Source of the DNA: Mesotaenium endlicherianum
Lineage: Eukaryota
Direction: 5' to 3'
Length of the DNA: 64,000 nucleotides
NCBI GenBank assembly: GCA_009602735.1
Contig: WELA01002777.1
Span: 89,680 to 153,679 of the forward strand
The notes under the pieces were generated by a model, which was not told the DNA's origin, made no database searches, and worked only from the letters and a program-made list of their open reading frames with translations. Both the position numbers and the translations under genes were made by a program. Positions 17,831 to 61,267 of this stretch are shown piece by piece. Every line of letters begins with the position of its first letter. Within the stretch, counting starts at the first letter, position 1.

Positions 17831-18052
17831 ATGACGAAAGAGGATGTGAGCAAGCTGAGTGCTAGCGAGAAGGAGAAGACTAAGTTGAGGGAGAGGCAGA
17901 GGCGAGCCATTACCACTAAAATTTTTGCTGGCCTGAGGAAATACGGTGGATATAACTTGCCTCCTAGAGCAGACATAAATGACGTGCTGAGGGCATTGGC
18001 TGCTGAAGCTGGTTGGGTGGTGGAAAACGATGGAACGACCTATCGCATGCCT
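17831..18052 (+). CDS. BES1/BZR1: BES1/BZR1-family transcription factor, exon 1 (DNA-binding domain)
   Basis: [60 protein letters not shown] is a textbook BES1_N domain. GTACGC donor follows TTYRMP, near the usual intron position. Confidence 0.95.
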
Positions 18053-20779: not shown

Positions 20780-20807
20780 AGGGTTAGGGTTAGGGTTAGG
20801 ATTAGGG
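20780..20807 (+). repeat. Short interstitial (TTAGGG)n telomere-like tract
   Basis: agggttagggttagggttaggattaggg. Confidence 0.7.
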
Positions 20808-29149: not shown

Positions 29150-29955
29150 TTAAGGGGTTGTTCCTGGGGCTTCAGGATCAGGAGACGGAGATCTGGACCT
29201 AGATCTGGACAGCCCTCTAGGTCTGTCAGCTGGCCTTCTAAAGAACCCTGTTTGCTCTAAAGTTGGACCTCGAGGAGAACAAAGGATGGTAGCCTGCTCT
29301 TCACCCACTTGGGTGTTGATCCCCACATAGACAGGCATTCCAGTAGGATGCTGAAATACATTGGCTAGAGGTACATGCCTCTGAGCGGAGGGGGGGGCCG
29401 GCATACCTCTGGCCCACCCGCGTGTCCCTCTTTTAGCACCCCTGTCCTCTGGGGATTTCTGCCTGTGTCTGCTGCCCAGTACAGTCAGATCAGCTTCTTC
29501 CCCTGCTTGGGCAGGTGGGCTGGGGGAGCGAGCGCGGGGTCCAGTTGTCGCCATAACGGGGATCACATTCCACACACCTGATCGTGGTTCTTTAGGAAGT
29601 GCCACTGCCTGTCCCTGGGTATCCTGAGTACCTGCTGCTGATGCTTCTCCTCTGCCTTGTTCTTCTTCCTCATCCTCCTCATCCTCCTCCTCGGAGAGAG
29701 TAGGGGTCTCGTCCACTAAGTCGTCCTGCTCCCTAGTAGACATGGAGTAGTCTACCGACCTCCCTTTCTTAGGGCGCGCTAGAGGTTGCTTGGCCTTCAG
29801 CCTGCTGATATCTATCCGGCCTGCATTCTTTGCCCATTTGACAAAGGCATGCTTTCCCTTAGAGAAGTACTCTCTTCCCCTCCTCCTATGTTCCTTGGTC
29901 TCTGCATTCATATTGCTCAGGCATCCATTCAGCCTGGGGTCCCAAGGGGCAATGT
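29150..29955 (-). pseudogene. C-terminal half of the family-A extra ORF (variant 1), copy A2
   Basis: IAPWDPRLNG...PEAPGTTP is nearly identical to 59608-60410. The 5' part is replaced by family-B LTR sequence. Confidence 0.9.
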
Positions 29956-31535: not shown

Positions 31536-32394
31536 TGAAATGAATCGACTTACCAAATAGGCAATTAACAATTCATAAAGATCTTTATATCAGCAAGTAA
31601 TCTTTATGGTATTTTCCGTTAACTGGTTAAACGGCAAAGGACAACACACTAGCAGGGAATAATACTCGTAAGTCAAATGCGAGTAAACTAGCATCAATAA
31701 TGCAATCAGTAAACTCATACATAAGCAAGGTTAGAAGACAGTGCGTATCAATGGCTTCTCGCCTTGGATTCAGATCTCTCTCAGTAAGCTGTACAAGAGA
31801 GTTGGCCTCGTTTCCGAATGCCGAACTCGAAAGCAATGCCTAGCATATGTACATGGAATGAGTTTACTGTTCAACGGCCAGTGCGATGGCACCGCCTACC
31901 CGGGAGTTAACCACGTTGGTAGGACCTCGGTTAACCAAATCCACCGCCATCTCCCATCATCCCGAATTGCCATCCATCATAGGGATGTCATCTGGCCATC
32001 TATCTAGCATACCACACTTAGATGCATATCGAGGCAATTCGTTGCTACCGAGTACGGAAGTCAGCTGGCTGTCAAAGAATGTGTCAGCAAGCTGACTTAA
32101 GCTGACTTCAGCCTGCTGCTTTCGGCTGAGTCATTAAACTGATATTAAATATAAAGTCCAGCAGACTGATTATTAACTAGAGTTCAGCAGGCTGAACTTA
32201 TTTAACTGTTAATATTATATCAACCAATATACTGATTCATTACAATCGCTCCAACTTAACATGTTGTCGCCTCGACAACACTGACACAGGGTACATAGGT
32301 TTCCCCAACTGAGAATACTGATCCCTCTCCCATCCAGCATGCTGTGCCCTTGGCCTTCCGCCCTTAGGAGGGAGATGCCCTTGGGGCCGTATGG

Positions 32395-34032
32395 TCAGGG
32401 GGAGTCAGTCCTCCTCCTGTCTTGGGGTCTTCTGAAGCCTGTCAGAGAGGGAGGTTCCGTGTAAGGACCCGGCGGAGAACGCAGTAATTGTGCTGTTTCG
32501 TCCTGCACGGTCTGAAACTGAATGGAGGCAGCCTTCTCCTGGGCATCCCTCAAATTGACTGGTACATATACCGGCATCCCAAAAGGATGTTGCATGACAT
32601 GAGCTAAGGGTACATGCCCTCTCTGCAAGGGAGATGCCGGCAGGCCTCTTGCTATTTCTCTAGCAGCCCTCCTGTCTGCCCTGTTTGACTGGGTCTCCGT
32701 GCCTGGAGATGGGCTCTGTCCTTTGGCAGTTCCCAACCAAGTGATATCCTCCTCTTCAGCGAGTTGCTGCAGGGCCAACCCCGTCTTTTCCCTTACAGGG
32801 GATGTGGCAGGTGTCAGGATCACGGCGGGGCTAGTGTCCTCCTCCTCGCCTTCCTCCTCGTCTTCCTCTGACTCCTCCTCCTCTCCGTCCCCGGGTTTCT
32901 CTGAGACTTCTGGGGTCTCCTCTGTCAGCTGCTCCAGCTCTTTCCGAGAAAAAGAATATCCCACTGACCTTCCCCTTTTGGGTGCTGGTGGGGGTTGCTG
33001 AGTCCGGACCGCATACAGGTCCTTTTCCCCCTGCTTGCTTGCCCATTTGGCATAAGCGTGCTTCCCTTTTGAGAATGACTCTCGGGCCCTGCTTCTGTCC
33101 CCCTGCATCTCTTGGCTCATGCAGTCTCTGACTCCATCCAATCTTGGGTCCCAAGCCGCAAAGTGAGGGGGCAATACTATGTTCCCCTTTAGGTCTGTCA
33201 GGAATTCCTCATCCGTCGCCCTGTCATTCTGCTGATCCCTCATGTTGATGGTCATCCACCGCCAATTGGTGGGCTTTTGGAAGAAGGCAGGCTCTGTCGT
33301 TTTAAGAGTACAAGGGTACCAGTGCCCTGCAAAGTCTAGCTGACTGGTTTCCCTGGCCAAGAACTCCCAGCTTCTCCTCTCCACCTCATTATACATGGCC
33401 TTGAACCGGTTATGGGGTGTAGAGTCCTTAAAGCTGTCCGCGTCCATGGGGATCATCCTGATGACCCTATCTTCCCCCCAGATACCAGGAATCGATACAG
33501 TCCGTGCTTCGTTCACCTGGGCCATTGCCTTGGCCTCTCTGACCGTATATCCTACCATCCTGGCGTGATCGTGGTAGAGGAGGAGCCCTGTGCCGACCTC
33601 TATATACTTGTCAAAATTTTCGGATGTCTCCCCTTCCCTCTGAAGGATTTCCTTCTGCGACTCACTGCGACTTCTTTGTGCATACTTGAAGGCCTCCTCC
33701 AGTAGATCAAAGCCCTTGCCCAGCACTGTGTAGCGGTAGCTGCTGATTCTCCTCTGTTCTTCTTCTTCGGCCTGTTGCTTCCGCTTCTCCTCAGCTTGCC
33801 TCTCCTCCTCTGCTTTCTTGGCCTCCTCTGCAGCTTTTCTGTCCATTTCTTCCTGCCTCAGTCTGGCCTGTTCCTCCTCCTCCTTCTTCTTCTGTGCCTC
33901 CCGCTGTTGTTGGAGTCGTTGTGATTCCCGAGCGGAGATGGAGGATGATTCGATGTCTCCACGGAATTGCAAGTATTTTGCAAGTGCCTCTTCCGCCCTT
34001 CTCTTCCTCTTGAGTTCCGACTTTTGAGTCAT
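32395..34032 (-). CDS. Family-A extra 3' ORF, variant 2 (545 aa from MTQKSEL), function unknown
   Basis: Uninterrupted ORF that aligns by eye end to end with 58734-60410 (YRYTV, MVGYT, DSFKD, YNEVERRSWE.LARE, WRWMT, LPPH.A.WDPRL, FSKGKHA, GHVPLA, QHP.GMPVYV). Confidence 0.85.
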   Translation of the reverse strand: MTQKSELKRKRRAEEALAKYLQFRGDIESSSISARESQRLQQQREAQKKKEEEEQARLRQEEMDRKAAEEAKKAEEERQAEEKRKQQAEEEEQRRISSYRYTVLGKGFDLLEEAFKYAQRSRSESQKEILQREGETSENFDKYIEVGTGLLLYHDHARMVGYTVREAKAMAQVNEARTVSIPGIWGEDRVIRMIPMDADSFKDSTPHNRFKAMYNEVERRSWEFLARETSQLDFAGHWYPCTLKTTEPAFFQKPTNWRWMTINMRDQQNDRATDEEFLTDLKGNIVLPPHFAAWDPRLDGVRDCMSQEMQGDRSRARESFSKGKHAYAKWASKQGEKDLYAVRTQQPPPAPKRGRSVGYSFSRKELEQLTEETPEVSEKPGDGEEEESEEDEEEGEEEDTSPAVILTPATSPVREKTGLALQQLAEEEDITWLGTAKGQSPSPGTETQSNRADRRAAREIARGLPASPLQRGHVPLAHVMQHPFGMPVYVPVNLRDAQEKAASIQFQTVQDETAQLLRSPPGPYTEPPSLTGFRRPQDRRRTDSP

Positions 34033-34380
34033 CCTGCTCAATCATAAACACAATGCAGTTAGTGAAGTCATGATATTTTGCCGCTACTGAGTGCCCTTGA
34101 TGAAGAGGAACGCGATCGGGAGAGGTCCTAGTGTGAAATACCTGGTGTGAGTGAATATACGGGAAAATCGAGTTAGAGAGAAAGTGAGTGAGAGCGCAGG
34201 TTGAGTGTGTTATATGGTTATCAGAGATTTTCCGGTTGATCCCAAAACATAATACCACTCCCTCCAACTTAATTTTAAAGGTGGGCTGCCTGTCACAACT
34301 GTCACTATTTGTCACATCCCCCTCCAACTTACATGGAGACAGGACCTCCTGTCACCTTCCCAGGTCTGCTGAAGGGACAG

Positions 34381-43800: not shown

Positions 43801-44960
43801 ATAAGCCTTGACTTTGTCGTTGAATTGCCTACCACCAAAAGGGGACACAATGGGGTGTTAACGATCGTCGATCGTTTCACTAAGATGGTGCACTTTGTGC
43901 CCACTAAACCATCGCTTGATGCCATCGAGACCGCTCGTCTCTTTATGGATCACGTGTTCAAGTTACATGGTATGCCGAAAGAGATCATAAGTGATCGTGA
44001 TAGTAGATTTACGAGTCACTTCTGGCAGGAAGTTTGCTCGCATTTGGCACGAAACTTAAGATGTCGACCAGCTTCCATCCTCAGACCGATAGCCAGACAG
44101 AACAAATGAACCGCGTTCTTCAGCAATTCCTTAGGCATTATGTGAATCCTCGCCATGACAACTGGAATACCCTCCTTTCAGTTGCCGAGTTCGCCGTAAA
44201 TAATGCTTATTAGGAATCTGTTAAGGAAACTCCGTTTTTCCTTAACCATGGGAGACACCCGCACACTCCGCTGACGGTTGTCGTTTCCCGTCAGCTGGGG
44301 GTGCCTAACATGAGAGTACCAAGTGCACGCCAATTTGTCCACTCTCTTCAAGAGGTGCACAAACAAGCAAAGTTGGCTTTAGCAGCCGCCCGGGACCGGC
44401 AGAAAAAGTTTGCTGACACGCACAGGAAAGAGTTGAGTTTTGAGGTCGGCAATAAAGTACTTTTGCAGACTAAAAACTTGAAACTCCAGCACCCAGGAAA
44501 GCGCAAGCTTCTGCCTCGCTGGGTAGGCCCTTTTATCGTTAGCGCAAAGGTTGGACCTCTTGCCTACCGACTGGATTTGCCTAAATCTATGGGGCGGAGG
44601 CATCCTGTGTTCCATGTCAGTTTACTGAAGCTGTTCAGGTCTGATGGCCGCTATCAGCCACAAGCACCGGAATTGGAACTCGAACAAGATGACATAGCCT
44701 GGGATGTAGAGGAGGTCATTGGGCACCGCTACACCCGTCATAAGCCTCCACGCGTGGAACTTTTGATTAAGTGGCTCGACTACGATTCCAGTTGGAATTC
44801 GTATGAACCGCAGGACGAAATCCTACATAATTGTAGCGACCTGGTTCAACAGGATTGGTTACGATGGGTTGACGCTCAAAGGCTCTGCGCTAAGGCAAGT
44901 GTGCTACCAGGCGCTCTTTGTACACCAAAGAACAAACGCAAAAGGGACGCGGCCAAGTAA
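40838..44960 (+). pseudogene. pol: Family-B pol (PR, RT, RNase H, integrase, chromodomain) with frameshifts and a stop
   Basis: IIDSGAS, YLDD, ADAS, HDSPYSGH...C.TCQR, ISDRD, WDVEEVIGHR...LIKWLDY. Broken at about 42190, 44045 and 44210. Confidence 0.9.
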
Positions 44961-45099
44961 TCGCTCTTTTTCGTCACTGTTCGCTGCAATCGCCCTTCGC
45001 TTGGACTGTGTTTCACGCTCGCTACGGGCAAGTATTAACACAGAATACTTAAAAGACAATGCTTAACGCGGACGTTAAGTTCTTTTAAGGGGGGAGGAG

Positions 45100-46097
45100 T
45101 GTAACCATCTGAGCTTTTTAGGCGTATTTAGAACGTTTTTCTAATTACCTAAAAGACGTTATACTTCTATTTTGTATAAGATTGCATGGTTATCGAATTA
45201 TTTCGACACACACGTGTGCCGACTAATTCCCGGTCGATTGGCGAAACGACTCGAATACTATTGCAAAAAGAATCGTAAAGTAATTCGATTACTTCGCAAA
45301 AGTATAACGTAATTAATCACAAAGTAATTCGATTAATTATGGCGGAATAACTTAATCAATTATGGATTGATTAATTTATTCTGACTGTCACTATTTCGGA
45401 TATTAGCAGTCATTGTTTTCGGTTAACGACGCGTCGCTAACCCGAAAGAAAACACCGAGTTGTGGCCCGGTCGGAATCGAACCCGCGACCTCCCGGTTGT
45501 CGCGTCGCGACTCCGAAAATCGTCGTAAAGTTAAACGAAGCGTCGTAAAGTTAAACGAAGCATAATATGCAAAGTTACTTTGCATTTCGGCAGATTCAAA
45601 CCCGCGACCTTTCGTTTAAAACGTTCACACCTAACCGATTGGCCAAAGTAGTTTTTATAACTATTGGTTCATGTCAAATCAATCTGTACGCGACCGCGCG
45701 AGCAGTCGCGACTTTTTCAAAAGTCGCGCGGACGAGAAAACGCCCGTTTGGCGTATAACGGTTTTTCGGAAACCGTCGAAAAGTCTCCTAAAAGCCAAAC
45801 GGCGCGCTAGGAGCATTCGGCCGAATTGGTTGTCTCCAATTCAACCGTTTTTCGTTGAACATGAACCAGTGCCCTAGGTGGTGACTCGAAGCACTCCAGT
45901 GCCTCACGTTGTGCAAGTATATATACTTGCAAGAGTCATTGTGAGTGCAACTCTCACAAGCACAAATTCTATTAGTTTACATTTTCGCTTTCACAAGGAT
46001 TGTGCATTTTCTCAAAGTTAACGTTATTTCTTTCTGCTAATATTAAATTATCCTTGAATACCGAGCAAAGATCCTCGTGGAAAGCAGAAACGTTACA
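45100..46097 (+). repeat. Family-B 3' LTR (998 bp)
   Basis: Follows the PPT, has inverted TGTAAC/GTTACA ends, and its 3' part is homologous to 29956-30383. Confidence 0.9.
45463..45650 (-). other. Two tRNA-derived (Pol III A/B-box) segments inside the family-B LTR
   Basis: Minus strand: TGGCCAATCGGTTAGG...AAGGTCGCGGGTTTGAATC (45646-45590) and GAGGTCGCGGGTTCGATTCCGACCGGGCCA (to 45463), then TTTT. Cloverleafs are incomplete. Confidence 0.6.
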
Positions 46098-47372
46098 CAG
46101 TTGCAAGAACTCCGGACAGCTGCTCTTGTCGCTCATACCAAGCTCCAGCACTCTTCTTCAGCAAAGTAATCACGAAGGCGACTTGGCGTGAGCGTAGAAT
46201 ACTCCATAAACTTCTTCACTCCAAAAATCCATTGATGAACAGGCGGCGATCCACGCTCTCCAGTATAAACTTCAGGCTTAGGCGCACGCACTCCCGATGC
46301 GGGTGGAATAACTGGCTGCACCACTGGGTTAACATGAATTGGTGGTACAACAGGGTCAGGTGCCGAAGTCGTCGAAGCGGCGTTCCCCATAACAACTCGC
46401 ACCATTCTCTCCACCTCCTCGCGCATATTTTGTTGAAACTGTGTATAGACTTCTCCTCCAATTACGTTTGCCATCTGCCTCAACATCGCTTGCATCTCTT
46501 GTTGCTCCCTTGACAAAGGTGGTGCCGTCTGCTCCACGCGCTCAACATGCTCGACATATTCGCCTCCTCCAGTTGCCGACTGCGACTCCATAATAAAATA
46601 TGCAAACTAGCCCAGCTCCGATACCAGATGAAAGGGGCAAAGTGCCCTAGTGGAAGTGTAGTAACTCACGAGGAAAGGAACTAGTTGCAATCATACTAAA
46701 GAGTGCAACGGCATATCACTAACAAAGCTTAGGAAAAATACTCAACATTTTGAGTAGCAAGAAACTGCTCACAAATGATGTAGGATGGAAGGCCTTGTCA
46801 TTACAAACCAGTAGAAATTTACAGAAGTGAAAACTGATGAGAAACAAAGAAGTTATGCCTATTTATAATTTTCTGCCTAAGTGCTCCTCCCTCGCAGGAA
46901 GCTACGGATTTTCGTAAGTGTTCGTCAAATCGTCCCTTCCAGAATATTCGTGAGTAAGCCAGATCAGTCTAATCTGACGTGTTGGGTTGAATTGACGTCC
47001 ACATACATGCATCGACATTACAAGAATATTCTATCTTAGACGCGCTAGGCTAAACCGAAACTTATAGGTAAATCGACCTAGTCGGCACTCCGCGTCAGTC
47101 GAACTTACGTGAAGGTTCAAGTTCACACTAACAGGCCAGATCGCTCGACGCTGTCGGTCAATCCGACAGCCACGCTCACCGCAAATTAAGGACAGTCGTC
47201 AACCGACCACAAAACTTATTAAACTTCGGAAATCCATAACTCTCTCAATACTTGACCAAATTCGATGAACTTTATATCAAAATGACCACAAAAATGCATT
47301 CTACACTATTGTACAATCAAAACATACTTTCATGAAACTCAAAAATGCACTTTATAAACCTATGACCTTACA
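46098..47372 (-). mobile_element. Family-D LTR retrotransposon fragment: 5' LTR 46629-47372, PBS 46615-46626, gag start 46591
   Basis: Minus strand TGTAAGG...CCTTTCA, TGGTATCGGAGC, and Gag-like PKPEVYTGER....VHQW then LLKKSAGAWY after a frameshift. Cut by B2 at 46098. Confidence 0.8.
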
Positions 47373-50300
47373 GTCTGGGTAACTGAAATCACTTCAGGCA
47401 GGCTGAAGTTGGTCATTCCTAATAACTTAGAAATAAGGTCACTCTTACTGAGTCAAGCACAAGACAATGTACTTGGTGGACATTTGGGGCAGGCCAAAAT
47501 TGTTGGCAAATTAGCAAAACATTATCGTTGGGATGGGTTGCCTCCGGAGGTCTTAAAATATGTTAAGTCTTGTGATCATTGTCAAAAAAGTAAGTCTCGA
47601 CACACACCACCCGGGGGGCTAATACAACCACTACCCATCCTAGCTAGACGCTGGGAGACAATATCCATGGACTGGGTGGTAACACTACCAAGAACGGCCA
47701 ATGGGCATGATTCTATACTGGTAGTTGTGGATAAACTGACAAAAATGGTCATTTTCATCCCCATCATTGTCAAAGTAACTGCCCTCACACTGCGAGACAA
47801 TTTTACAACGATGTGGTATGCCATCATGGGCTACCCTCTAATATTATCTCAAACAGAGACTCAAAATTTACCTCTAAGTTCTGGAGAGCTTTAATGGGGT
47901 TAATGGGGTCAAACAGCTGCTCAGCACAGCAAACCACCCTCAGACTGATGGGCGGACTGAAAGAACTAACCAAGTTCCGCAGGAGGTGCTGAGAGCATAT
48001 GGTAACCAAAAACAAGATACTTGGGATGACCTGTTGCCTCAAATTCAGATTGCAGTCAATAATGCGGTGCACGCGTCAACGGGAAAGACCCTTTTTGAAC
48101 TCAATCTAGGTAGGGTCTCTAAGTCTCCACTGGATGTGCTAGGGGAGTCTTTAACTCATCCTGAGGGAATTGACAATCCGGTGTCTCTCCCGTAAACTCA
48201 GGAATTTGATGACACCCTGTCAGAAGTCCAACACAACCTGCACAAAACCCAGGAACATCAACAAAAAAACGCTAATCAACACCGTTGGGAGCTGACATTT
48301 TCAAAGGGCGATTTGGTCAAACTGCATTCTCAACACCTGTACCTGCCTGGTGTGGCCAAGAAAAAGCTTGGTCGTGTCTGGGTCGGTCCATATTCGGTGG
48401 TGCGCCGTGTCGATCAGAATGCTTACAAATTGAACATGTCAGCGGAATACAAGGGTCACCCAGTCTTTATTGTCTCCTTCCTGGAACCATACATCAAGGG
48501 TGACACACTGTTCACTAGTCGGTTACCTGTCCAACCGGGATTGGTTTCCGCTGTCAGGGATGGTGACCCTGAGGAATATAAGGTCGAAGAAATTTTGGAA
48601 GCTCGCTCTGTCCGTCGATCATCTAAATATGTCACGAAATACCTGGTCAAATGGAAGGTTTGCGATGCCTCTGGGGATACTTGGGAATTTAAGGACCATA
48701 TGATCAATGCCAAAGGGGCGTTGAAACAGTTCCACCTTCGGGCGGTCGGGGCACCTCCCTTACTGTCATTTCAGTTGACATGGGAAGGTGACAGGAGGTC
48801 CTATCTCCATTTAAGTTGGAGGGGAAATGTGCCAGTAAATGACAGTTAGTGTGCCAGAAAGGGACAATTATTGACAGTTAAGTGTCAGCGTAGTGACAAT
48901 TGGGACAGCCGGGCCCACATTAAGCAAAGTTGGCGGAATGAAAAAGGGACTCGCACATCAACACATCACTAAACTCACCCTGCACACACATTCATTATTT
49001 TTCATTGCACTACAGCTACGTTAACTCCTAGTAACCACCCCGTAAGGTAAACAGGAAAAAACCTACCATAATAATACAAACTGCTTCTCTTCTTGAAACT
49101 CCTGTGACAAAGAGATCCTACTAACTTGTGCCCTGGTTACATGTGCAGCATGACTCCTACCACACAAAAGGAAGATAGGAAGCTCAAGGCAGAAGAAGCC
49201 AGGAGGACGATGGAGCAATACCAGAAAGAGCTGGCGGCAACGTACCTCACCAGGATAGAACAAGAAAGGGTCCGCAGACAACAAGAGGCAGCAGAGGAAG
49301 CACAGAGGAAGAAGGAGCAGGAGGCGAAAATCTCAGGAAAGCTGAAGAGGAGAGACAGAAGAAATAACAAGAAGCAGCAGCGGCAGCTGAGGAGAAGAGA
49401 AGGAAGAAGGTTGAAGCTGAGAAGCAGAAGAGCCTGGCCACTTACAGATATACTGTGGTGGGTGGCCAAACCTTTGACAACCTGAAAGAGGCATTATTGG
49501 CTTCCCAGGAGATCAACAAGGTGGAACAGAAAACAATGTTACAAAGAGAAGGACCTGAAGCGCTGGATAAGTACATTGAGACACACACTGGTGTGGTCCT
49601 CTACGAAGATTATGCCAAGATGGTGGGCTATACAGCAGGGTAAGCTCGGTATCTTGCAGCTGATTTGGAGAACAAGCCTGTTCTAGTACCTGGAATAGTG
49701 GGAGATCAGAGATTTATCAGGTTGGTGAGCATGCAGCCCGATAGCTTTAAGGATACGGTATTTTATCTGACACTACTGCCAGCTTACAATGAAGTTGAGC
49801 GGAGGAGTTGGGGGTACCTAGCCAGGGAAACAGGGCAGCAGATGTTCTCTCCCCACTGGTTTCCTTGTAAGCTGAAAAAGGCTGAGCATTGGCCACAGTA
49901 CTACTAGCAGCGCACAGACTGGAGGTGGATGACCGTCTCTAACAAAAAGCAGGAGTGTGACCGAGCCCAACCAGATGACTTCCTCTATGGGCTAGACGGC
50001 TACCTCATCCTACCACCTCACATTGCCCCTTGGGACCCTAGGTTGAATGGATGCCTGAGTAATATGAATGCGGAGACCAAAGAGCACAGGAGGAGGGGCA
50101 ACGACTATTTCTCTAAGGGGAAGCATGCCCTTGTCAAATGGGTGAAAAATGCAGGCCGGATAAATATCAGCAGTCTGAAGGCCAAGCAACCTCCAGCTCG
50201 TCCTATGAAAGGGCGGTCAGTAGATTTTTCCATGTCTACCAGGGAGCAGGATGACTTAGTGGACGAGACCCCTACCCTCTCTGAGGAGGAAGATCAGGAG

Positions 50301-51465
50301 GATGAGGAAGAAGAACAAGGCAGAGGAGAAGCATCAGGAGCTGGTACTCAAGAGACCCAGGGGCACGCAGAAGCAGGGACTCCTAGGGCGCCAAGATCAG
50401 GTGTATGGAATGTGATCCCTGTCATGGAGGCAACAGGACCTCGCACTCGTTCCCCCAGCCCACCTGCCCAAGCAGGGAAAGAAGCTGATTTGACTGTTCT
50501 TGGCAGCAGAAAAAGGCAGAAATCCCCAGAGGACAGGGGTACAAGAAGAACAACGCGCGGAGTAGCCAGAGGTATGCTGGCCACCCCCTTCAGTCAAGGA
50601 CATGTGCCTCTTGCCAATGTATTTTAGCATCCTACCGGAATGCCTGTTTATGTGGGTATCAACACCCAGGTGGTTAAAGAGCAGGCTACAATCCTTCGTT
50701 CTCCTTGAGACCCAACTTTAGAGCAAACAGGGTTCTTTAGAAGGCCAGCTGACAGACCTAGAGGGCTGTCCAGGTCTAGGTCCAGATCTCAGTCCCCTGA
50801 TCCTAGAGCTCCAGGAACAACCCCCTAAACATCAAAATCATCCTCCAGTCAAGCCTTGCTGGAGGTCTCTCTGTTTGCCCCCCACAACGGAAGTGGACTG
50901 AGGGTGGAGGTGACAGTTTATTGTCACTAGTGATCCCCACAGCTAGGCAACTGTGTTAAAGCAAGAGGCAGGCGGTGGGGGGTTAGTACTATTAGTTCCC
51001 TGACCAAATAATTTTACAATGTAATGTTGTCAAGGCGACAACAATTTAAGTTGGAGAAATTGTAAAGAATCAATATATTTGTAGATATTATATTCATTTG
51101 TATATAGTGGTTAAATAATTTTAGCTTGCTAAACTTTAGTTAATATTTAGTCTGCTGGACTTTACATAATTACCAGATTAATGACTCAACCGAGAGCAAC
51201 AGGCTGAAGTCAACTTAGGTCAGCTTGCTGACACATTCTTTGACAGCCAGCTGACTTCCGTACTCAGTAGCAGCGAACTGCCTAGATATGCATCTAACTG
51301 TGATATGCTAGATGAATGGCCAGATGACATCCTTGGGATGGATGGCGATTCAAAATGATGGGAGATGGCGGTGGATTTGGTTAACCGAGGTTCTACCAAC
51401 GTGGTTAACTCCCAAGTAGGCGGTGCCATCGCACTTGCCGTTGAACAGTAAACTCATTCCTTGTA
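47373..51465 (+). mobile_element. Older family-A 3' half: integrase-chromodomain relic, extra ORF relic, PPT, truncated 3' LTR (51061-~51465)
   Basis: Colinear with 57075-60960, with many stops and frameshifts. Confidence 0.9.
49150..50828 (+). pseudogene. Family-A extra ORF (variant 1 type), pseudogenised
   Basis: MTPTTQKEDRK... through ...PGTTP with a frameshift and several stops. Confidence 0.9.
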
Positions 51466-52449
51466 CTTTGCAACCAGGGTAGCAGGAGCACAACCTACAT
51501 AAGAAGGCGGATTCACTGGAAGACACTTTCCTACAGAACTTGAGAAGAGGAAGTGTCGTGTGTGTTGCGGGTACGTTTGGGCAACGTGCCAATAGAAAGA
51601 GAGCTAAGTTTTGTGATTACAAATGTACGTCTTGTAATGTGTATCAGGTGCTGCTTCTTGCTTTCAAGTATACCACACAACCAGGATTATTCCCCATCTA
51701 GATGAAGGATCTTTCAGGGAGAAGAGATCTTAGGAGACACAAGTAGGCAAGAATCGACGAAATAGAGATAATCTGGTAGGAAGTGTTATTAATCGTAGTG
51801 ATCCTGTGAGATTTATGAAGATATGACAAGATTGAGTTCGTTAGCTTCTATTTGATTCTATTTTTTTAATTTTTCAAAACAAACAAATTAATTGTTTATT
51901 TTATCACCGAATTGATCCAATTAAATTATTCTCAGAATATTTAAAATTTATTTAAAAAATCCTTACGAAGTCAAGAACACAAAATATGCTATGTTGAGTT
52001 TCAGATTTGTGTGATCTGTGTGCACTTCACAAAGTCAAGCTGTGCGAAGTTGTCCATTGAAATGCTTGTTGCATCATGCTTTTTTTGCGCATCATATTAG
52101 GTGCATATTTGTTAAGAGCACCATATGCCAAAGTACTTCTTCAATAGATCTCAAATGTTGCACATGTAGAGATTACCCATATGCATACTTCCGGCTAAAT
52201 TCCCATGCCCTAGAAATCGAGGTCTCAAGAGTTATGAAGATCCAAATTTTGTTATTTTGGGTGTCGTTATTTTCGATTTCACTCTTTTAAAAAAACATCA
52301 TGAAAACCAAAAAATGTGGTCACCAAGATTGTGATGACAACTGTCCATATCTGTACTTCATTGCATGATAGGACTAATACTATGATCACAAAAAAATCAA
52401 GAGTAATGGTAGTAGATGCATCGAAAAGTGAAGTTGCCGTGGGCTATCT
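51466..52449 (+). mobile_element. piggyBac-like relic 1: C-terminal cysteine-rich domain and 3' end; last bases continue at 61268-61276 followed by TTAA
   Basis: FTGRHFPTELEKRKCRVC...YKCTSCNV...SCFQVYHT from 51512. The reconstructed end reads ...GGGCTATCTAGTG|TTAA. Confidence 0.7.
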
Positions 52450-53168
52450 TGTAATGAATCAGTATATTAAAGGATATAATATTCATTTAAATATAATAGT
52501 TAATTAAGTTCAGCCTGCTGAACTTTAGTTAATAGTCAGTCTGCTGGACTTTACATAATTATCAGTTTAATGACTCAGCCAGAAGCAGCAAGCTGAAGTC
52601 CATATAAGTCAGCTTGCTGACCCATTCTTTGACAGCCAGCTGACTTCCGTACTTGGTAGCAGCGAACTGCCTTGATATGCATCTAAGTGCGATATGCTAG
52701 ATGAATAGCCAGATGACATCCCTATGATGGATGGCTATTCGGGATGATGGGAGATGGCGGTGGATTTGGTTAACCGAGGTCCTACCAACGTGGTTAACTC
52801 CCGGGTAGGCGGTGCCATCGCACTGACCGTTGAACAGTAAACTCATTCCATGTACATATGCTAGGCATTGCTCTCGAGTTCGGCATTCGGAAACGAGGCC
52901 AACTCTCTTGTACAGCTTACTGAGAGAGATCTGAATCCAAGGCGAGAAGCCATTGATACGCACTGTCTTCTAACCTTGCTTATGTATGAGTTTACTGATT
53001 TGCATCATTGATGCTAGTTTACTCGCATTTGACTTACGAGTATTATTCCCTGCTAGTGTATTGTCCTTTGCCGTTTAACTAGTTAACGGAAATACCATAA
53101 AGATTACTTGCTGATATAAAGATCTTTATTAATTGTTAATCGCCTATTTGGTAAGTCGATTCATTTCA
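52450..53168 (+). repeat. A4 5' LTR (719 bp)
   Basis: Direct repeat of 60524-61267, followed by the PBS. Confidence 0.95.
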
Positions 53169-53202
53169 GTGGTATCGGAGCAGTTATCACAGTCTTCTTT
53201 GT

Positions 53203-54681
53203 ATGGTAAGGACAAGGTCTCAAACTAGCAACTCCCGAGACATGGAGAACCAGGATAACGAGAATGTCGAAAACCAGGCGGAAAGCCATGTAGCGGGAAA
53301 CCGTACCTATTCGGAAGCAGTAGCGGATACTGCAGCTAGGGAGGCAGCAGATGAGGCAGCTGCTATTGCCTCAGTCGCAGCTCAGCAAGCTGAGGAGGAG
53401 ATAGCCAGACTAGAAGCTGAACAAGTAGCAAAGGCCGCTGAAGATATACAAAGGAGGGAAGGACAGCCAGCTGACGAGCGCACTGTTGAAGAACTTATGG
53501 CATCAAGGGCCAATGTTCTGAACCCACCTCCTGCCGTACAACTCAATGTACCCCTAGGTCAAATACGTGACCGGCTGAATGCGGCAGGAATTGCTGCTGC
53601 AGGAGCAAGAGGGATTGTTGAGGACACTACTCAGCGAGTAGATGCCAATGCTGCTGCTGCATTTGCTAATCTACCACCCCAAAATGTAGACTTGGGAGCA
53701 TTGTTCGTTCAGATGCAGTCGCAAATGGCGACCATGTATCAGTCCCAGCAGGAGGACAAAAGAATCATAATGTCCCTACTCCGGGACAGAGACCAACTGG
53801 GGTCTCACACCACTAGTGGTGGTGGCCGAGGGCCTAGTAAGCCCAAGCCGAAACCTCCCCAGGACTATGATCCTGAGGGAAACAGAAAATATTACCTGAT
53901 CAAGTTTCTCGCGGATGTTGAGCAGTGGCTGGAGAACTACCCAGAACTGCAAGATTACGAGAAGGTCAGGCACACCGGTGCGCTACTGAAAGGCAGTGCC
54001 GCAGACTGGTGGCTTTACTGGAAGGAAGAGCGTAAGGCTCGGCAACTCGGTGACCCTACGTGGGTAGAGTTTGTCGAGAAGTTGCATGAGAAGTTTGATG
54101 TCATCAACCAGCAAGAGAAAGCTATCTATGCGATGATCTCCCTGACACTGAAGCAGACCACTTCAGTTGCTGAGTTTGCTCAAGAGTTCCAAGAGAACAT
54201 GATGAAGCAGCCTGATTTGCCAGAACGGTATAGGATAGCATACTTCAGGTATGGCTTGAAATTCGAAGTCTCTGGTCATTTCACTGAGAAAAAGTATGAG
54301 AAACTGGCTGACTTGATCCAGGATGCTGACGCCTGGGATCAGCAGCAGTTCAATCACAAGCGCCAGAGTAACGCTTTGGTGTCTAAGATTGTCAAAAAGC
54401 CCCACGGTTCCTACAATGCAGTTGAAGGAGACCAGGCTGAGGATAATCAGGGTGATGAATATGAGTATGAGTACAATGCTATTCAGTCTAGAGGTAGAGG
54501 TGGTCCCTCTCGAGGTGGCTATGGAAGGGGTGGTGGTAGGACTAAGCCGAGACCAGCCTCAGCAAAATCTACTTGCTACCATTGTCAGCAGAAAGGCCAC
54601 TACAGAGAACAGTGTCCGGTCAAGCACCTGCCTAAGGTCGAGAGAAAAGACCAGCCTTTAAAAGACAGCAACAGTCAGTAA
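53203..54681 (+). CDS. gag: Gag (492 aa), copy A4
   Basis: Retrotrans_gag-like core and zinc knuckle [14 protein letters not shown]. Confidence 0.95.
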
Positions 54682-54698
54682 TCCAGTCTACTGACTGT
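54657..54698 (+). promoter_or_regulatory. Predicted -1 ribosomal frameshift signal
   Basis: T_TTA_AAA in the gag frame, 7-nt spacer, perfect 10-bp stem ACAGTCAGTA/TACTGACTGT. pol is open in the -1 frame. Confidence 0.8.
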
Positions 54699-57600
54699 GA
54701 GGATGCTAGAGATAGTGAGTCGTCACTAGCTGCCCTCGTAGCAGGTATTATGGGTCCTGCTGAACTGGATTCACTATGCATGCCTGACAAACAGATAAAG
54801 GAGACCATCAGTAATATAGACGTCCAGAGAGTGCACACTCTGGATGCTCTTGTTCCACCTGATGTCCAACATTTCTTTGCTACGTCAGGAGAACAATGCG
54901 AAAGTCAGGAAAAGACAGTCCCCCCTATCCTACTGCATTGCATGATTGCAGGTAGGAAGGTGAGGGCATTTGTTGACGGAGGGGCGTCACATACTTTTAT
55001 TCACAAGGACTTAGTTAAGCGGCTAAGGCTGCCTACTGTCATCCAAGGGAATAGACAAATATTCCTTGGAGATGCCTCAAGTATCACGGGAGGAGTTATA
55101 ACCAAGCCTATTGAGGTCCAGTTAGGTTCTGGCATTGCAGTTCTAACTGAAACGCTTACATTTGAGGTACTCAACACTGGCTTTTATGATCTCGTGCTAA
55201 GCAGGTCCTGGCTTAATAGACATAAAGCTGAAGTGTGTTGGAGCAGAGGTACAGTTAAAGTGAGAGGAGCCAGTGATGGGCAGACTGACTTGGCACCCAC
55301 CAGTGCTCTTCCTCTTGTCCTGTGTGGATGGCAAATGAAGGAAAAGAAGAGGCTTCCAGAAGGATGCAAGTTGCTGAATGCAATGGAGTTCGTCAAAAGC
55401 TGGAACCAGAAGGAAGACAGAATGTTCTGTCTGCTGCTAAGAGAGGTACCTCCTCAACCTGAAGAAGTGGTTGAGAAAAAGGTAAGCCCTCCGGAGCACC
55501 CTACTGCTGCAAAAATTGTTGCTCAGTACACTGATGTGTTTAACATGCCTCCAGGACTACCCCCTAAAAGGGAAGTAGATCATAGGATTGATCTATTACC
55601 TGGTAGCCAGCCACCCTGGCAACGCACTTATGGCTTGTCTTATTTGGAGAGCGAGGAGTTGAAAACACAGATTGCAGAGCTGGAGGAAAATGGTTACATT
55701 TCTCCCAGTAAATCACCGTACGGCGCACCTATCCTATTTGTTAAGAAAAAGGATGGCAGTATGCGGATGTGTGTGGATTACAGAGCCCTGAACAGAATTA
55801 CAGTAAAGAACAAGTATGCTTTACCCAGAATCGAGGACTTGCTTGATACCCTGTCTGGCGCTAAGGTGTTCAGTAAGATAGATCTCAAGAGTGGTTATCA
55901 TCAAATCAGAATTGCTGAGGGGGATGAACACAAGACTGCTTTCCGCACACGTTATGGACACTATGAGTTCAACGTGATGCCATTTGGACTGACTAATGCT
56001 CCTGCTACCTTTATGGGTGCTATGAATGACATTTTCAGACCTTATTTGGATAAGTTTGTGCAAGTTTTCCTGGATGATATTTTAATTTTCTCTAAAGATG
56101 AAGCTCAGCACACTGAACACTTAAAGGAAGTGCTGGACACTCTGCGGAAAAATCACTTGTATGCTAAAATGAGCGAGTGTGATTTCTTTAAAGAAAGTAT
56201 TGAATTCTTAGGCCACGTTGTCAGTTAAGAGGGCATCAGTGTGGATCCTAAGAAAGTCCAGACCATAAGGGACTGGCCAGTACCACAGTCTGTCTCTGAA
56301 GTTAGATCCTTCCTCGGGTTGGCTAACGACTATAGGAGATTTATTGAGAATTATTCCACAAAGGCCAGTAAACTGACTGACCTTACTAAGAAAGACATCG
56401 GGTATGTGTGGGGGGAAGAGCAGCAGGCTGCCTTCCAGACCCTTAAAGATGCCCTTTGTTCTGCCCCAGTGCTAGCCGTGTATGACCCCAGCAAACCGGT
56501 GCAGGTGGTTACTGATGCCTCTGATTTTGCCATGGGTGCTATTTTGTCGCAGCCTGCTGACAAAACCACAAAGGATGGTAAGGTACGGCAGGAGTGGCAT
56601 CCTGTGTTGTATGAGTCTATGAAATTTAATCCAGCGGAGATTAATTACTCAGTGCATGATAAAGAGCTGCTAGCTATCATTCATGTACTCAAACAGTGGA
56701 GAGCATACTTACATGGTAAAGCTTTTAAGGTGATTACAGATCATCTAGCTCTGACCCACTTTCAGAAGAAGTCCAAGCTGTCGAGGAGGGAGAACCGCTG
56801 GAGCCAGATGCTGGAGCAGTTCCAAGTCCAAATCGACTACAAACCAGGGAAGTTGAATCCTGCTGATGCACTCTCTAGAAGACCTGACTTGCAAGAAAGG
56901 AACTTTAGTCAGCATGCTGTAGATAAAGTCCTGTGTGCACTCACTTCACTAAAGGTGAAAAAGTCCTTCCTTGAACAACTTAGGAAAGCCTACCTTTCTG
57001 ACCCAACATTTGAGCCCAGCCCCACTACTGGTGTGTGTCGTGCTACTGCACTCGGGTATAAGCTTAAGGGAGGGGTCTGGGTGACTGAAACCACTTCAGG
57101 CAGGCTGAAGCTGGTCATTCCTAATAACTTGGAAATAAGGTCTCTCTTACTGAGTCAAGCTCATGACAGTCTCCTGGGTGGACATTTGGGGCAGGCCAAA
57201 ACTGTTGGCAAACTGGCAAAACATTATCATTGGGAGGGGTTACCCCGGGAGGTCTTGAAATATGTCAAGTCCTGTGACCAGTGTCAGAGAAATAAGTCTC
57301 GGCACACACCACCCGGAGGTCTCTTGCAACCGCTACCCATCCCAGCGGGACGCTGGGAAACTATATCCATGGACTGGGTGGTCTCACTACCAAGAACTGC
57401 CAACGGGCATGATTCAATACTGGTAGTCGTGGATAAACTGACAAAAATGGTCATTTTTATCCCCACAACTGTCAAAGTGACTGCACTCGAAACAGCGAGA
57501 CAGTTTTACAACCATGTAGTATGCCAACATGGGCTCCCTTCTAATATCATCTCAGACAGAGACTCAAAATTCACCTCTAAGTTCTGGAGAGCTTTAATGG

Positions 57601-58466
57601 GGTTAATGGGAGTCAAACAGCTGCTCAGCACAGCAAACCACCCTCAGACTGATGGGCAGACTGAAAGAACTAACCGAGTTCTGCAGGAGGTGCTGAGAGC
57701 ATATATTAACCAAAAACAAGATAATAGGGATGACCTGTTGCCTCAAATTCAGTTTGCGGTCAACAGTGAGGTGCACGCGTCAACGGGCAAAACTCCTTTT
57801 GAACTCAGCCTGGGTAGAGTCCCTAAGTCTCCTCTATATGTGCTAGGGGAATCTTCAACTCACCCTGAAGGGATTGACAACCCGGTCTCCCTCCAGTTAA
57901 TTCAGGAGTTTGCTGACACCCTGTCAGAAGTCCAACGAAACTTGCACACGGCCCAAGAAAACCAACAAAAATACGCTAATCAACACCGTCGGGAACTGAC
58001 ATTTTCCAAGGGGGATTTAGTCAAACTGCATTCTCAGCACCTGTACCTCCCTGGTGTGGTCAAGAAAAAGCTTGGCCCTGTCTGGGTCGGTCCATATTCG
58101 GTGGTCCGTCGTGTCGGTCAGAATGCTTACAAACTGAACATGTCAGCTGAATACAAGGGGCACCCGGTCTTTAATGTCTCCTTCCTGGAACCGTACATCA
58201 AAGGTGATACACTGTTCACAGGTCGGTTCCCTGTCCAACCGGGACCGGTCCCCGCTGTCCGGGACGGCGACCCTGAGGAATATGAGGTCGATGAGATTTT
58301 AGACGCTCGCTCGGTCCGTCGATCGTCTAAATATGTCATGAAATACCTCATTCGATGGAAGGGTTACGATGCCTCTGGGGACACTTGGGAGTTTAAGGAC
58401 CACTTGACCAATGCCAAAGGGGCGTTGACACGGTTCCACCTTCGGGCCGCTGGAGTCCCTCCATAA
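54657..58466 (+). pseudogene. pol: Pol (PR-RT-RNase H-INT-chromodomain) with a single premature TAA at 56226-56228, copy A4
   Basis: All domain motifs are present. Copy A3 has AAA (VSKEGIS) at the stop position. Confidence 0.92.
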
Positions 58467-58733
58467 CTGTCATTTCAGTTGACACGGGAAGGTGACAGGC
58501 GGTCCTGTCTCCATTTAAGTTGGAGGGGAAAATATATGACAGTTAGTGAGCGAGAGCGATAAAAACACACTCATACGTTTATGTGTAGCGCATCGCAACT
58601 ACGTCAACTTTTAGCAATCATCCTGTAAGGTAAACAGCAGCGAAGCCACTATACTAAATACTAACATACTTCCTGCAATCCCTATGACAAAGGTCCATAT
58701 CCTACTAACTTGTGCCCTGGTTACATGTGCAGG

Positions 58734-60410
58734 ATGGCGCCCACCACACAAAAGGAGGACAGAAAGCGCAAGGCAGAAGAAGCCAGGAGGACAATGGAGC
58801 AATACCAGAAGGAGCTGGCGGCGACGTCCCTCACCAGGAGAGAACAAGAAAGGGTCCGCAAACAACAAGAGGCGGCAGAAGAGGCACAGAGGAAGAAGGA
58901 TCAGGAAGCGGAAAACCTCAGGAAGGCTGAGGAGGAGAGACAGAAGAAACAGCAAGAAGAAGCGGCAGCGGCAGAAGAGGAGAAAAGAAAAAAGATTGAA
59001 GCGGACAGACAGAAGAGCTTGGCCACTTACAGGTATACTGTGGTGGGTGGCCAAAACTTCGATAACCTGAAGGAAGCATTGCTGGCAGCCCAGGAGATCA
59101 ACAGGCTGGAACAGACAACACTGCTACAGAAGGAAGGAGCTACAGCACTGGACAGGTACATCGAGACACACACCGGCGTGGTCCTTTACGAAGATTATGC
59201 TAAGATGGTGGGCTATACAGCAGAGCAGGCCCGGTATCTCGCAGATGATTCAGAGGACAAGCCGGTCCCCATACCGGGAATAGTGGGAGATCAGAGACTC
59301 ATCCGGATGGTGAGCATGCGGCCCGATAGCTTTAAGGATACGGTATTCTACCTCACACTCCTGCCAGCTTACAATGAAGTTGAGAGAAGGAGCTGGGAGT
59401 ACTTGGCCAGGGAAGCAGGACAGCAGATGTTCTCTCCCCACTGGTTCCCGTGTAAACTGAGGAAGGCTGAGCACGGACCCCAGTACTACCAGCAGCCAAC
59501 AGACTGGAGGTGGATGACCGTCACAAATAAGAAGCAGGAGTGTGACCGAGCCCAACCGGATGACTTCCACTATGGCCTAGACGGCTATCTCATCCTACCA
59601 CCTCACATTGCCCCTTGGGACCCCAGGCTGAATGGATGCCTGAGCAATATGAATGCAGAGACCAAGGAACATAGGAGGAGGGGAAGAGACTACTTCTCTA
59701 AGGGAAAGCATGCCTTTGTCAAATGGGCAAAGAATGCAGGCCGGATAGATATCAGTAGGCTGAAGGCCAAGCAACCTCCAGCGCGCCCTAAGAAAGGGAG
59801 GTCGGTAGACTACTCCATGTCTACTAGGGAGCAGGACGACTTAGTGGACGAGACCCCTACTCTCTCCGAGGAGGAGGATGAGGAGGATGAGGAAGAAGAA
59901 CAAGGCAGAGGAGAAGCATCAGCAGCAGGTACTCAGGATACCCAGCGACAGGCAGTGGCACTTCCTAAAGAACCACGATCAGGTGTGTGGAATGTGATCC
60001 CCGTTATGGCGACAACTGGACCCCGCGCTCGCTCCCCCAGCCCACCTGCCCAAGCAGGGGAAGAAGCTGATCTGACTGTACTGGGCAGCAGACACAGACA
60101 GAAATCCCCAGAGGACAGGGGTGCCAGAAGAGGGACACGCGGGTGGGCCAGAGGTATGCCAGCCTCCCCCTCCGCTCAGGGGCATGTACCTCTAGCCAAT
60201 GTATTTCAGCATCCTACTGGAATGCCTGTCTATGTGGGCATCAACACCCAAGTGGTTGAAGAGCAGGCTACCATCCTTCGTTCTCCTCGAGGTCCAACTT
60301 TAGAGCAAACCGGGTTCTTTAGAAGGCCAGCTGACAGACCTAGAGGGCTGTCCAGATCTAGGTCCAGATCTCCGTCCCCTGATCCTGAAGCCCCAGGAAC
60401 CACCCCTTAA
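58734..60410 (+). CDS. Family-A extra 3' ORF, variant 1 (558 aa from MAPTTQKED), function unknown
   Basis: Uninterrupted ORF between pol and the PPT. Charged coiled-coil-like N-terminus, aromatic-rich core, acidic tract, RS/SP-rich tail. Homologues in three other copies. Confidence 0.88.
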   Translation: MAPTTQKEDRKRKAEEARRTMEQYQKELAATSLTRREQERVRKQQEAAEEAQRKKDQEAENLRKAEEERQKKQQEEAAAAEEEKRKKIEADRQKSLATYRYTVVGGQNFDNLKEALLAAQEINRLEQTTLLQKEGATALDRYIETHTGVVLYEDYAKMVGYTAEQARYLADDSEDKPVPIPGIVGDQRLIRMVSMRPDSFKDTVFYLTLLPAYNEVERRSWEYLAREAGQQMFSPHWFPCKLRKAEHGPQYYQQPTDWRWMTVTNKKQECDRAQPDDFHYGLDGYLILPPHIAPWDPRLNGCLSNMNAETKEHRRRGRDYFSKGKHAFVKWAKNAGRIDISRLKAKQPPARPKKGRSVDYSMSTREQDDLVDETPTLSEEEDEEDEEEEQGRGEASAAGTQDTQRQAVALPKEPRSGVWNVIPVMATTGPRARSPSPPAQAGEEADLTVLGSRHRQKSPEDRGARRGTRGWARGMPASPSAQGHVPLANVFQHPTGMPVYVGINTQVVEEQATILRSPRGPTLEQTGFFRRPADRPRGLSRSRSRSPSPDPEAPGTTP

Positions 60411-60523
60411 GGTGACAGGCTGAAAAGATAGTCAGTAAGGGAGGCTGGTCAGGGTCAGTTTCTTTATTTAAAGCTTTTGCAGTTTAATGTTGTCGAGGCG
60501 ACAACAAGTTAAGTTGGAGGGAT

Positions 60524-61267
60524 TGTAATGAATCAGTATATTAGTAGATATAATATTCATTTAAATATAATAGTTAATTTAGTTCAGCCTGCTGAACTTT
60601 AGTTAGTAGTCAGTCTGCTGAACTTTAGTTAATAATCAGTCTGCTGGACTTTACATAATTATCAGTTTAATGACTCGGCCAAAAGCAGCAGGCTGAAGTC
60701 AACTTAAGTCAGCTTGCTGACACATTCTTTGACAGCCAGCTGACTTCCGTACTCGGTAGCAGCGAACTGCCTTGATATGCATCTAAGTGCGATATGCTAG
60801 ATGAATGGCCAGATGACATCCCTATGATGGATGGCTATTCGGGATGATGGGAGATGGCGGTGGATTTGGTTAACCGAGGTCCTACCAACGTGGTTAACTC
60901 CCGGGTAGGCGGTGCCATCGCACTGACCGTTGAACAGTAAACTCATTCCATGTACATATGCTAGGCATTGCTCTCGAGTTCGGCATTCGGAAACGAGGCC
61001 AACTCTCTTGTACAGCTTACTGAGAGAACTCTGAATCCAAGGCGAGAAGCCATTGATACGCACTGTCTTCTAACCTTGCTTATGTATGAGTTTACTGATT
61101 TGCATCATTGATGCTAGTTTACTCGCATTTGACTTACGAGTATTATTCCCTGCTAGTGTATTGTCCTTTGCCGTTTAACTAGTTAACGGAAATACCATAA
61201 GATTACTTGCTGATATAAAGATCTTTATTAATTGTTAATCGCCTATTTGGTAAGTCGATTCATTTCA
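60524..61267 (+). repeat. A4 3' LTR (744 bp, includes a 26-bp tandem duplication)
   Basis: Follows the PPT and ends in CA plus the TSD. Confidence 0.95.

What the first reader, a model, noticed from the sequence alone, without database searches (positions are those of the whole stretch)
58557..58736. Conserved intron and splice acceptor directly before the extra-ORF start codon
Seen, variant 1: AAG|GTAAAC (58630), TACTAAC (58703-58709), TGCAG|GATG (58732), a 103-nt candidate intron. Seen, variant 2 (minus strand): CAG|GTATTT (34141), CACTAAC (34064-34058), GCAG|GATG (34034), 108 nt. The intervening sequences are otherwise unalignable. The older copy (about 49040-49152) keeps the same donor, branch point and CAG. 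Both variants also have an AT-rich box followed by AACACACTCA upstream. Inference: the ORF is expressed from its own internal promoter with a 5'-UTR intron, or from an env-style spliced subgenomic RNA.
Basis: partly seen in the sequence, partly recalled or inferred. Interest (0 to 1): 0.8.

Follow-up and report, generated by a model that had tools for sequence, protein, structure and literature searches.

The report
Intron-bearing extra gene inside a retrotransposon
A plant-lineage jumping gene carries a conserved extra gene of unknown kind, with a short intron just before its start codon that is seen removed in one public assembly, which suggests the gene is likely read from its own small message while the full-length element keeps the intron.

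Summary
Three copies of one chromovirus (Ty3/gypsy) carry a donor, a YACTAAC branch point and a CAG one base before the ATG of a sense extra ORF after pol. The ORF is under purifying selection (dN/dS 0.125). It has no credible relative in the searches run and no membrane helix, so it is not env-like.

One contig of run X5 skips exactly 58630-58732, which supports the local donor. No LTR-to-acceptor joint was listed.

Limits: one contig; X5 is not on record as RNA; the variant-2 intron was not seen spliced in 0 of 4 runs laid; and GT..AG joints also occur on the antisense strand, one far deeper, so a joint alone does not prove function. Conservation is the stronger evidence: the last 34 intron bases are identical between copies 35% diverged at silent sites.

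Best reading (0.55): a 5'-leader intron of a short transcript from an internal promoter. It would survive reverse transcription because the packaged RNA stays unspliced. No transcription start is shown. Spliced or self-promoted accessory ORFs are known; I did not find this combination in print.

The parts
52450..61267 (+). Full-length chromovirus copy A (LTR, PBS-like site, gag, pol with chromodomain, spacer, extra ORF, PPT, LTR); target-site duplication TATCT
   Evidence: LTRs 645 of 658 identical
52450..53168 (+). 5' LTR; TATAAA at 53115 and a strong unused-looking donor at 53151 (candidate for the env-style rival)
   Evidence: donor intact in 5 of 6 LTR copies shown
58494..58528 (+). Hairpin plus PPT-like AAGTTGGAGGG, a duplicate of the hairpin plus PPT layout before the 3' LTR
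58467..58563 (+). Spacer with clustered TGACAG (58472 minus, 58493, 58537); candidate internal promoter or enhancer (inferred)
58564..58629 (+). Candidate non-coding first exon, from AACACACTCA to the donor; true 5' end not known
   Evidence: 30 letters upstream of the joint in the X5 contig
58630..58732 (+). 103-nt intron: AAG|GTAAAC, branch TACTAAC 58703-58709, TGCAG|
   Evidence: exact skip in 1 contig of X5
58734..60410 (+). Extra ORF variant 1, 558 aa: charged N-terminal helix, conserved core about aa 95-375, acidic tract, basic/RS-rich tail
58505..58805 (-). 301-nt antisense GT..AG intron over the same spacer, branch CACTAAC 58548-58542; likely cryptic
60511..60521 (+). Polypurine tract before the 3' LTR (60524-61267)
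34034..34141 (-). 108-nt predicted intron of variant 2 (copy B); not seen spliced
   Evidence: no joint in 4 runs
32395..34032 (-). Extra ORF variant 2, 545 aa, 47% identical to variant 1, silent sites saturated
49047..49148 (+). 102-nt intron of old copy O; 13 nt around the donor and last 34 nt identical to A
49150..50828 (+). Broken variant-1 ORF of copy O (frameshifts and stops)
29150..29955 (-). 3' part of a variant-1 ORF in truncated copy D; intron region absent

Best explanation
The 103-nt stretch is a conserved spliceosomal-type intron one base before the start codon of a selected extra gene in a chromovirus, and it likely belongs to the 5' leader of a short message predicted to start at an internal promoter in the spacer after pol. 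Shown: the motifs, their conservation, selection on the ORF, and one exact local junction. Inferred: (1) transcription starts in the spacer, near AACACACTCA, about 65-70 nt before the donor; (2) this cap-proximal intron is spliced, which removes upstream ATGs (an out-of-frame one in both A and B) and leaves the ORF start first or nearly first; (3) the full-length LTR-driven RNA mostly stays unspliced here, which is why every copy that spans the site still has the intron after reverse transcription; (4) the product is likely a soluble nuclear accessory factor acting on the element's own chromatin or RNA, not an envelope protein.
For: The exact skip 58630-58732 (GT..AG) is in one X5 contig, depth 9.34 against 26.2 unspliced depth at 58656. 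The site was predicted without tools, and about 37,000 GT..AG pairs of 60-600 nt are possible in the stretch. The last 34 intron nt are identical between A and O, while the intron middle is 39 of 50 identical and silent sites differ at 35%. Motif order and spacing are kept between A and B although their intron middles are unalignable. ORF dN/dS is 0.125 (A vs O) against 0.172 for integrase. The intron is present in 3 of 3 window copies that span the site, and X1 and X4 contigs cross it unspliced with no joints. Sense introns are lost in retrotransposition (PMC12786077, passages). The donor lies 164-285 nt after the pol stop; splicing there in the full-length RNA would be expected to invite nonsense-mediated decay (recalled rule). 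The gag ATG|GT donor at 53206 would put an out-of-frame ATG 4 nt before the ORF start. TGACAG clusters in all three spacers (3-4 seen, 0.08-0.19 expected, motif chosen after looking). Maximum 19-residue hydropathy is 0.73-0.80, and basic clusters are conserved.
Against: There is one contig, from a run whose kind is not on record. Raw RNA run X9 (6% read) has zero depth in 6 bins over the variant-1 ORF. The variant-2 intron shows no joint in X5, X6, X12 or X15, although raw reads cover it. Antisense GT..AG-type joints occur in the same element, one at depth about 609 in X6, so the host splices sites that are probably accidental. No transcription start, and no coverage step at the spacer, was seen. 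The deep X6 signal on the ORF's 3' half is better explained by a foreign LTR inserted in one copy. No TATA box sits at the usual distance before AACACACTCA. The protein's function has no homology or structure support (pLDDT 40 and 37).
Confidence: 0.55

Rival explanations
1. The intron is real but is removed from LTR-initiated RNA: either an env-style, doubly spliced message (LTR donor at 53151 to an acceptor just after the pol stop, then the local intron), or occasional splicing of the full-length RNA.
For: A strong donor sits at 53151, intact in 5 of 6 LTR copies shown. A pyrimidine-rich CAG lies 12 nt after the pol stop in A, O and B. The junction contig shows only 30 letters upstream. Precedent: ATHILA and Bagy2 spliced subgenomic RNAs (PMC7197481 passages; PMC7264820).
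Against: None of the 13 joints links the LTR or leader to the spacer. There is no good branch point before the extra CAG. Routine splicing of the full-length RNA should yield intron-less copies, and none is seen in the window, X1 or X4.
Confidence: 0.25
2. The motifs are conserved for another reason (promoter, translation or replication signals) and the one junction is cryptic splicing, like the antisense joints.
For: Three antisense joints with intron-like ends (301, 289, 243 nt). Variant 2 was never seen spliced. In A and O an in-frame ATG 9 nt upstream allows translation without splicing.
Against: A perfect branch point 30-31 nt from the end, a donor, a 102-108 nt length and a position one base before the ATG are all kept across unalignable introns. 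Two of the three antisense introns lack a branch motif, and one antisense donor is GT only in O.
Confidence: 0.12
3. The spacer, intron and ORF are a captured host gene cassette (promoter, 5'-UTR intron, coding exon) that entered behind an older polypurine tract. The intron is inherited host architecture. This is an origin story and is compatible with the best explanation; as a rival it says the intron is a passenger. The contig could also be an intron-less DNA copy if X5 is DNA.
For: The hairpin plus PPT-like motif is duplicated at the cassette's 5' edge in A, O and B. The ORF has no coding intron.
Against: No host-like relative was found. A passenger intron should be lost or decay, yet its ends are more conserved than silent sites.
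Confidence: 0.08

Closest known systems
ATHILA ORF2 and barley Bagy2 env-like genes (sense ORF after pol, spliced subgenomic RNA; PMC7197481 passages, PMC7264820 parts 1-2 of 3)
   Same: Sense ORF between pol and the 3' LTR with a splice acceptor before it
   Different: Those are non-chromoviruses, described as spliced from the full-length, LTR-driven RNA, some with membrane helices. Here the donor is local (103 nt) and the protein has no hydrophobic helix.
Maize Grande gene23 and Retand antisense ORFs (PMC7264820; PMC11963269 passages)
   Same: Accessory gene after pol with its own promoter and a nuclear product (shown for Grande)
   Different: Those are antisense and in the Tat lineage, often with TRP28. 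Here the gene is sense, so its intron is exposed to loss in reverse transcription; Pfam finds no TRP28.
Foamy virus internal promoter for tas/bet (PMC13220597 passages)
   Same: Works-like analogue: internal promoter driving spliced accessory messages at the 3' end of a retroelement
   Different: An animal retrovirus; no sequence relation found; the promoter is only inferred here.
Ogre, EVADE and BARE1 introns
   Same: A sense intron kept in a plant LTR element because only part of the transcripts are spliced
   Different: Those introns lie within gag-pol and set protein ratios; this one is in the leader of a third gene.
Tekay extra ORFs (PMC6317226 Additional file 5; PMC11728184 passages)
   Same: Chromovirus with a conserved extra ORF, partly disordered, with predicted nuclear signals; 18% of Tekay have a 3' forward ORF
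   Different: Tekay is seed-plant and mostly lacks the aromatic cage. The table lists no extra ORF for Chlamyvir, Tcn1, Galadriel, Reina or CRM. This chromodomain appears to keep the cage.

Membership tests
Chromovirus (Ty3/gypsy) | gag, protease, RT, RNase H, integrase order between LTRs with a target-site duplication | tested here: met
Chromovirus (Ty3/gypsy) | Chromodomain at the integrase C-terminus | tested here: met
   PF00385, E 8e-9; Y, W, Y at cage-like places read by eye
Named chromovirus clade (Chlamyvir, Tcn1, Galadriel, Tekay, Reina, CRM) | RT/RH/INT phylogeny against reference elements | not tested
   No reference set was on hand; the tRNA-Met-like primer site is a recalled match
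U2-type spliceosomal intron | GT donor, branch point 18-40 nt before a YAG acceptor | tested here: met
   the polypyrimidine tract is weak
U2-type spliceosomal intron | Exact removal in RNA | tested here: inconclusive
   1 contig in X5, kind not on record; 0 of 4 runs for variant 2
env-like aORF (ATHILA, Bagy2, errantivirus env) | Sense ORF between pol and the 3' LTR | tested here: met
env-like aORF (ATHILA, Bagy2, errantivirus env) | Membrane helix or signal peptide | tested here: not met
   Maximum 19-residue Kyte-Doolittle mean 0.73 and 0.80; hydrophilic N-terminus
env-like aORF (ATHILA, Bagy2, errantivirus env) | Splice from an LTR-proximal donor | tested here: inconclusive
   0 of 13 joints; contigs cannot show absence
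Self-promoted accessory gene (Grande gene23, foamy virus internal promoter) | Transcription start inside the element, upstream of the ORF | not testable with these tools
   No raw sense reads over the region in X9; contigs show no 5' ends
Retand/Grande antisense aORF | Antisense orientation, TRP28 domain | tested here: not met
   Sense ORF, no such Pfam hit; no long antisense frame (longest stop-free run 170 codons)

The most novel reading that the evidence does not exclude
A chromovirus of a non-seed plant lineage carries a complete gene within the element: its own promoter, switched by TALE homeodomain (KNOX/BELL-type) factors through the TGACAG cluster and so possibly in the zygote, a 5'-leader intron, and an orphan nuclear protein that keeps the genomic RNA unspliced or unsilenced, much as retroviral accessory proteins do.
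Probability: 0.12. Interest if true: 0.82.

Novelty: new variant of a known kind. Interest (0 to 1): 0.55.

Why it matters
Plant LTR elements are said to lack introns, with few exceptions, and sense introns are lost on retrotransposition (PMC12786077). A sense intron kept across variants whose silent sites are saturated implies that packaged and translated RNAs are spliced differently. It also gives an exact junction assay for how 3' extra ORFs are expressed, which a review calls unresolved (PMC7264820). The ORF is a long-lived, selected protein with no credible relative in the searches run, in a chromovirus type for which the main survey lists no extra ORFs.

Tried and rejected
No whole genome is held, so copy statistics rest on the window.

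Protein relatives: no Pfam hit above its cut-off. None in three word-index searches, which covered 306-977 aa and 152-492 aa only. One hit among 1.84 billion representatives, rejected as a summed score over six repeats of an unrelated repeat protein. PDB best E 0.11. Atlas best 0.85, and no usable hit for variant 2. No loci in metagenome (2 scans) or viral contigs.

AlphaFold models were too poor for a fold search (pLDDT 40.1 and 37.3), so none was run.

The run search listed no holder on record as RNA; this is no evidence on expression.

Rejected: the deep X6 signal on the variant-2-like ORF as support for an internal promoter (a foreign LTR end abuts it); an antisense protein gene (stops in every frame of the 274-nt exon); a gag-ATG fusion splice (out of frame); an env identity.

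Novelty searches listed no paper on this element or this arrangement. The library lacks most subscription papers. The Bagy2 paper was not held, Steinbauerova 2011 was not read, and Neumann's per-element table (Additional file 1) was too large to read; all could bear on novelty.

Full report
CONTEXT. The window is from a streptophyte (a BES1_N gene at 17831) and holds several copies of one Ty3/gypsy family. Copy A (52450-61267, plus) is full length, with LTRs 645 of 658 identical and a TATCT duplication. Copy B (40735-31536, minus), old copy O (47373-51466) and partial copies C and D complete the set. Pfam gives capsid, zinc knuckle, protease, RT, RNase H, integrase and chromodomain: a chromovirus. 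The chromodomain appears to keep its aromatic cage (by eye), which Neumann et al. report for non-seed plants (PMC6317226, sections 9 and 13). After pol comes a sense ORF of 558 aa (A) or 545 aa (B), 47% identical.

OBSERVATION. All coordinates check: introns of 103 (A), 108 (B) and 102 nt (O), with the branch motif 30-31 nt from the end and CAG one base before the ATG. A strict scan finds 5 such triples in the window; the 3 followed by one base and ATG are these. The null is 1.07 and 0.03 per window, and it is optimistic because the pattern was written after seeing the sites. Between A and O the last 34 intron bases and 13 bases around the donor are identical, the middle is 39 of 50 identical, and silent sites of the ORF differ at 35%. 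Between A and B the middles align no better than shuffles. The ORF's dN/dS is 0.125 against O (integrase 0.172) and 0.353 on few changes against D; A against B is saturated.

READS, FOR. Of 18 runs listed I laid 7 in two calls. On A (X1, X4, X5, X9) 13 joints are listed, all in X5. One skips 103 nt with GT..AG ends and equals 58630-58732 exactly: one contig, depth 9.34, 30 letters on the short side. X1 and X4 cross the site unspliced, have fairly even depth and show no joints. That study P3 (X5, X6) is RNA is my inference. The grounds are several intron-like joints, one of them shared with raw RNA run X12, and 75- to 110-fold depth differences for the same variants between X5 and X6 (31 vs 2385; 5.6 vs 609). 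If X5 is DNA, the contig would be an intron-less copy, which still implies splicing.

READS, AGAINST. X9 (raw polyA RNA, 6% read) has zero depth over most of A's ORF. On B (X5, X6, X12, X15) none of 6 listed joints is the variant-2 intron, although about 16 reads in X12 and 9-11 in X15 lie on intron positions. These reads share differences with an X5 contig that ends at 33970, so they likely come from a truncated copy. In X15 their direction suggests antisense RNA, if the library is the usual stranded kind. The element is also spliced on the antisense strand. A 301-nt GT..AG intron (58805-58505, CACTAAC at -44) spans the same spacer, at depth 5.6 in X5 and about 609 in X6 (loose letters matched by eye to 58807-58834). 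A 289-nt joint has 8 raw reads in X12; its donor is GT in O and GG in A and B. A 243-nt GT..AG joint is in X5 and X6. The antisense exons carry no open gene, and the complement of the PPT-like motif can supply the pyrimidine tract, so I read these as cryptic. They show that a junction alone does not prove function. The deep X6 signal on a variant-2-like ORF begins at the end of another family's LTR and is not evidence for an internal promoter.

MECHANISM. Shown: motifs, selection, one local junction. Inferred: a sense intron should vanish once spliced RNA is reverse-transcribed (PMC12786077, passages), yet 3 of 3 copies spanning the site keep it, so the packaged RNA must usually stay unspliced here. 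The donor lies 164-285 nt after the pol stop, where splicing of the long RNA would be expected to invite decay (recalled). The simplest reading is a separate short transcript whose first intron this is. Splicing removes an out-of-frame ATG in A and in B. In A a short upstream ORF in the first exon ends at the donor and is not conserved. Promoter clues are circumstantial: AACACACTCA 66-70 nt before the donor; a pyrimidine-leaning first exon (55-69%); and TGACAG clusters, with TGACAGTT the only 8-mer common to all three spacers after the PPT-like motif. A rice BELL protein binds TGACAG probes (PMC8348756, passages), and KNOX/BELL activate zygotes in green plants (PMC8478417, abstract); this is a lead only. 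The env-style route stays open through the LTR donor at 53151 and a CAG just after the pol stop, but no such joint was listed and the gag-ATG donor is out of frame.

PROTEIN. It has no membrane helix, conserved basic clusters, an acidic tract and, in A, an RS-rich tail. The only confidently modelled part is a long N-terminal helix. No credible relative was found. A nuclear accessory role is the likeliest guess, by analogy with Grande gene23; it is untested.

COMPARISON. It is placed like ATHILA and Bagy2 env-like ORFs but fails the membrane feature. It would work like Grande gene23 or the foamy-virus internal promoter, but is sense and in a chromovirus. It keeps its intron as Ogre and EVADE do, but outside gag-pol. 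Neumann's Additional file 5 lists 3' forward extra ORFs among chromoviruses only for Tekay (18%). Papers seen: PMC7264820 (parts 1-2 of 3); PMC6317226 (passages, sections 9 and 13, one supplement); passages of PMC7197481, PMC13220597, PMC11963269, PMC11728184, PMC9289625, PMC5408684, PMC12786077, PMC8365987, PMC8348756 and PMC11952523; abstract of PMC8478417.

VERDICT. A real, selected intron before an orphan accessory ORF (about 0.85). Internal-promoter model 0.55. New variant of a known kind; interest 0.55.

Noticed in passing
window 58505-58805 (minus); 57942-58230; 34984-35226 (plus): Three antisense intron-like joints across the spacer and the integrase end. The 301-nt one is about 100-fold deeper in X6 than in X5, and its branch CACTAAC is kept in A, O and variant-2-type spacers seen in X1 and X4.
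   Followed up: partly
window 58494-58528, 48790-48825, 34353-34319, 34270: A hairpin plus PPT-like motif is duplicated just after pol in all copies (B has a second PPT-like motif, O a decayed one). It may be an ancestral or second plus-strand priming site marking where the ORF cassette was gained.
   Followed up: partly
window 46629-47371 (minus) and about 33489: Another LTR family interrupts copy O. Its LTR end abuts a variant-2-like ORF in an X6 contig of depth 852, which suggests strong read-through from a nested LTR.
   Followed up: partly
window 53115-53168: TATAAA followed 36 nt later by a perfect donor TG|GTAAGT near the LTR 3' end, intact in 5 of 6 LTRs shown; might act as a U1 site rather than a splice donor.
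   Followed up: no
window 17831-20321: Host BES1/BZR1-family gene with a predicted intron of about 1 kb (about 18054-19109) and a long Q-rich C-terminus; a short TTAGGG run lies near 20780.
   Followed up: no
window 40963-45700 and 29954-31528: A second chromodomain-bearing gypsy family with no long ORF after pol; a natural comparison element.
   Followed up: no
window 60411-60524, 50829-51060, 32245-32394: The 3' UTRs after the extra ORF differ between variants but end in the same TGTTGTCG hairpin before the PPT; loose ends in X1 and X6 point to a further variant.
   Followed up: no
window 58469-58478 and 53160-53169: TCATTTCAGT occurs both just after the pol stop (A, O) and at the LTR end/primer-site junction; not kept in B.
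   Followed up: no
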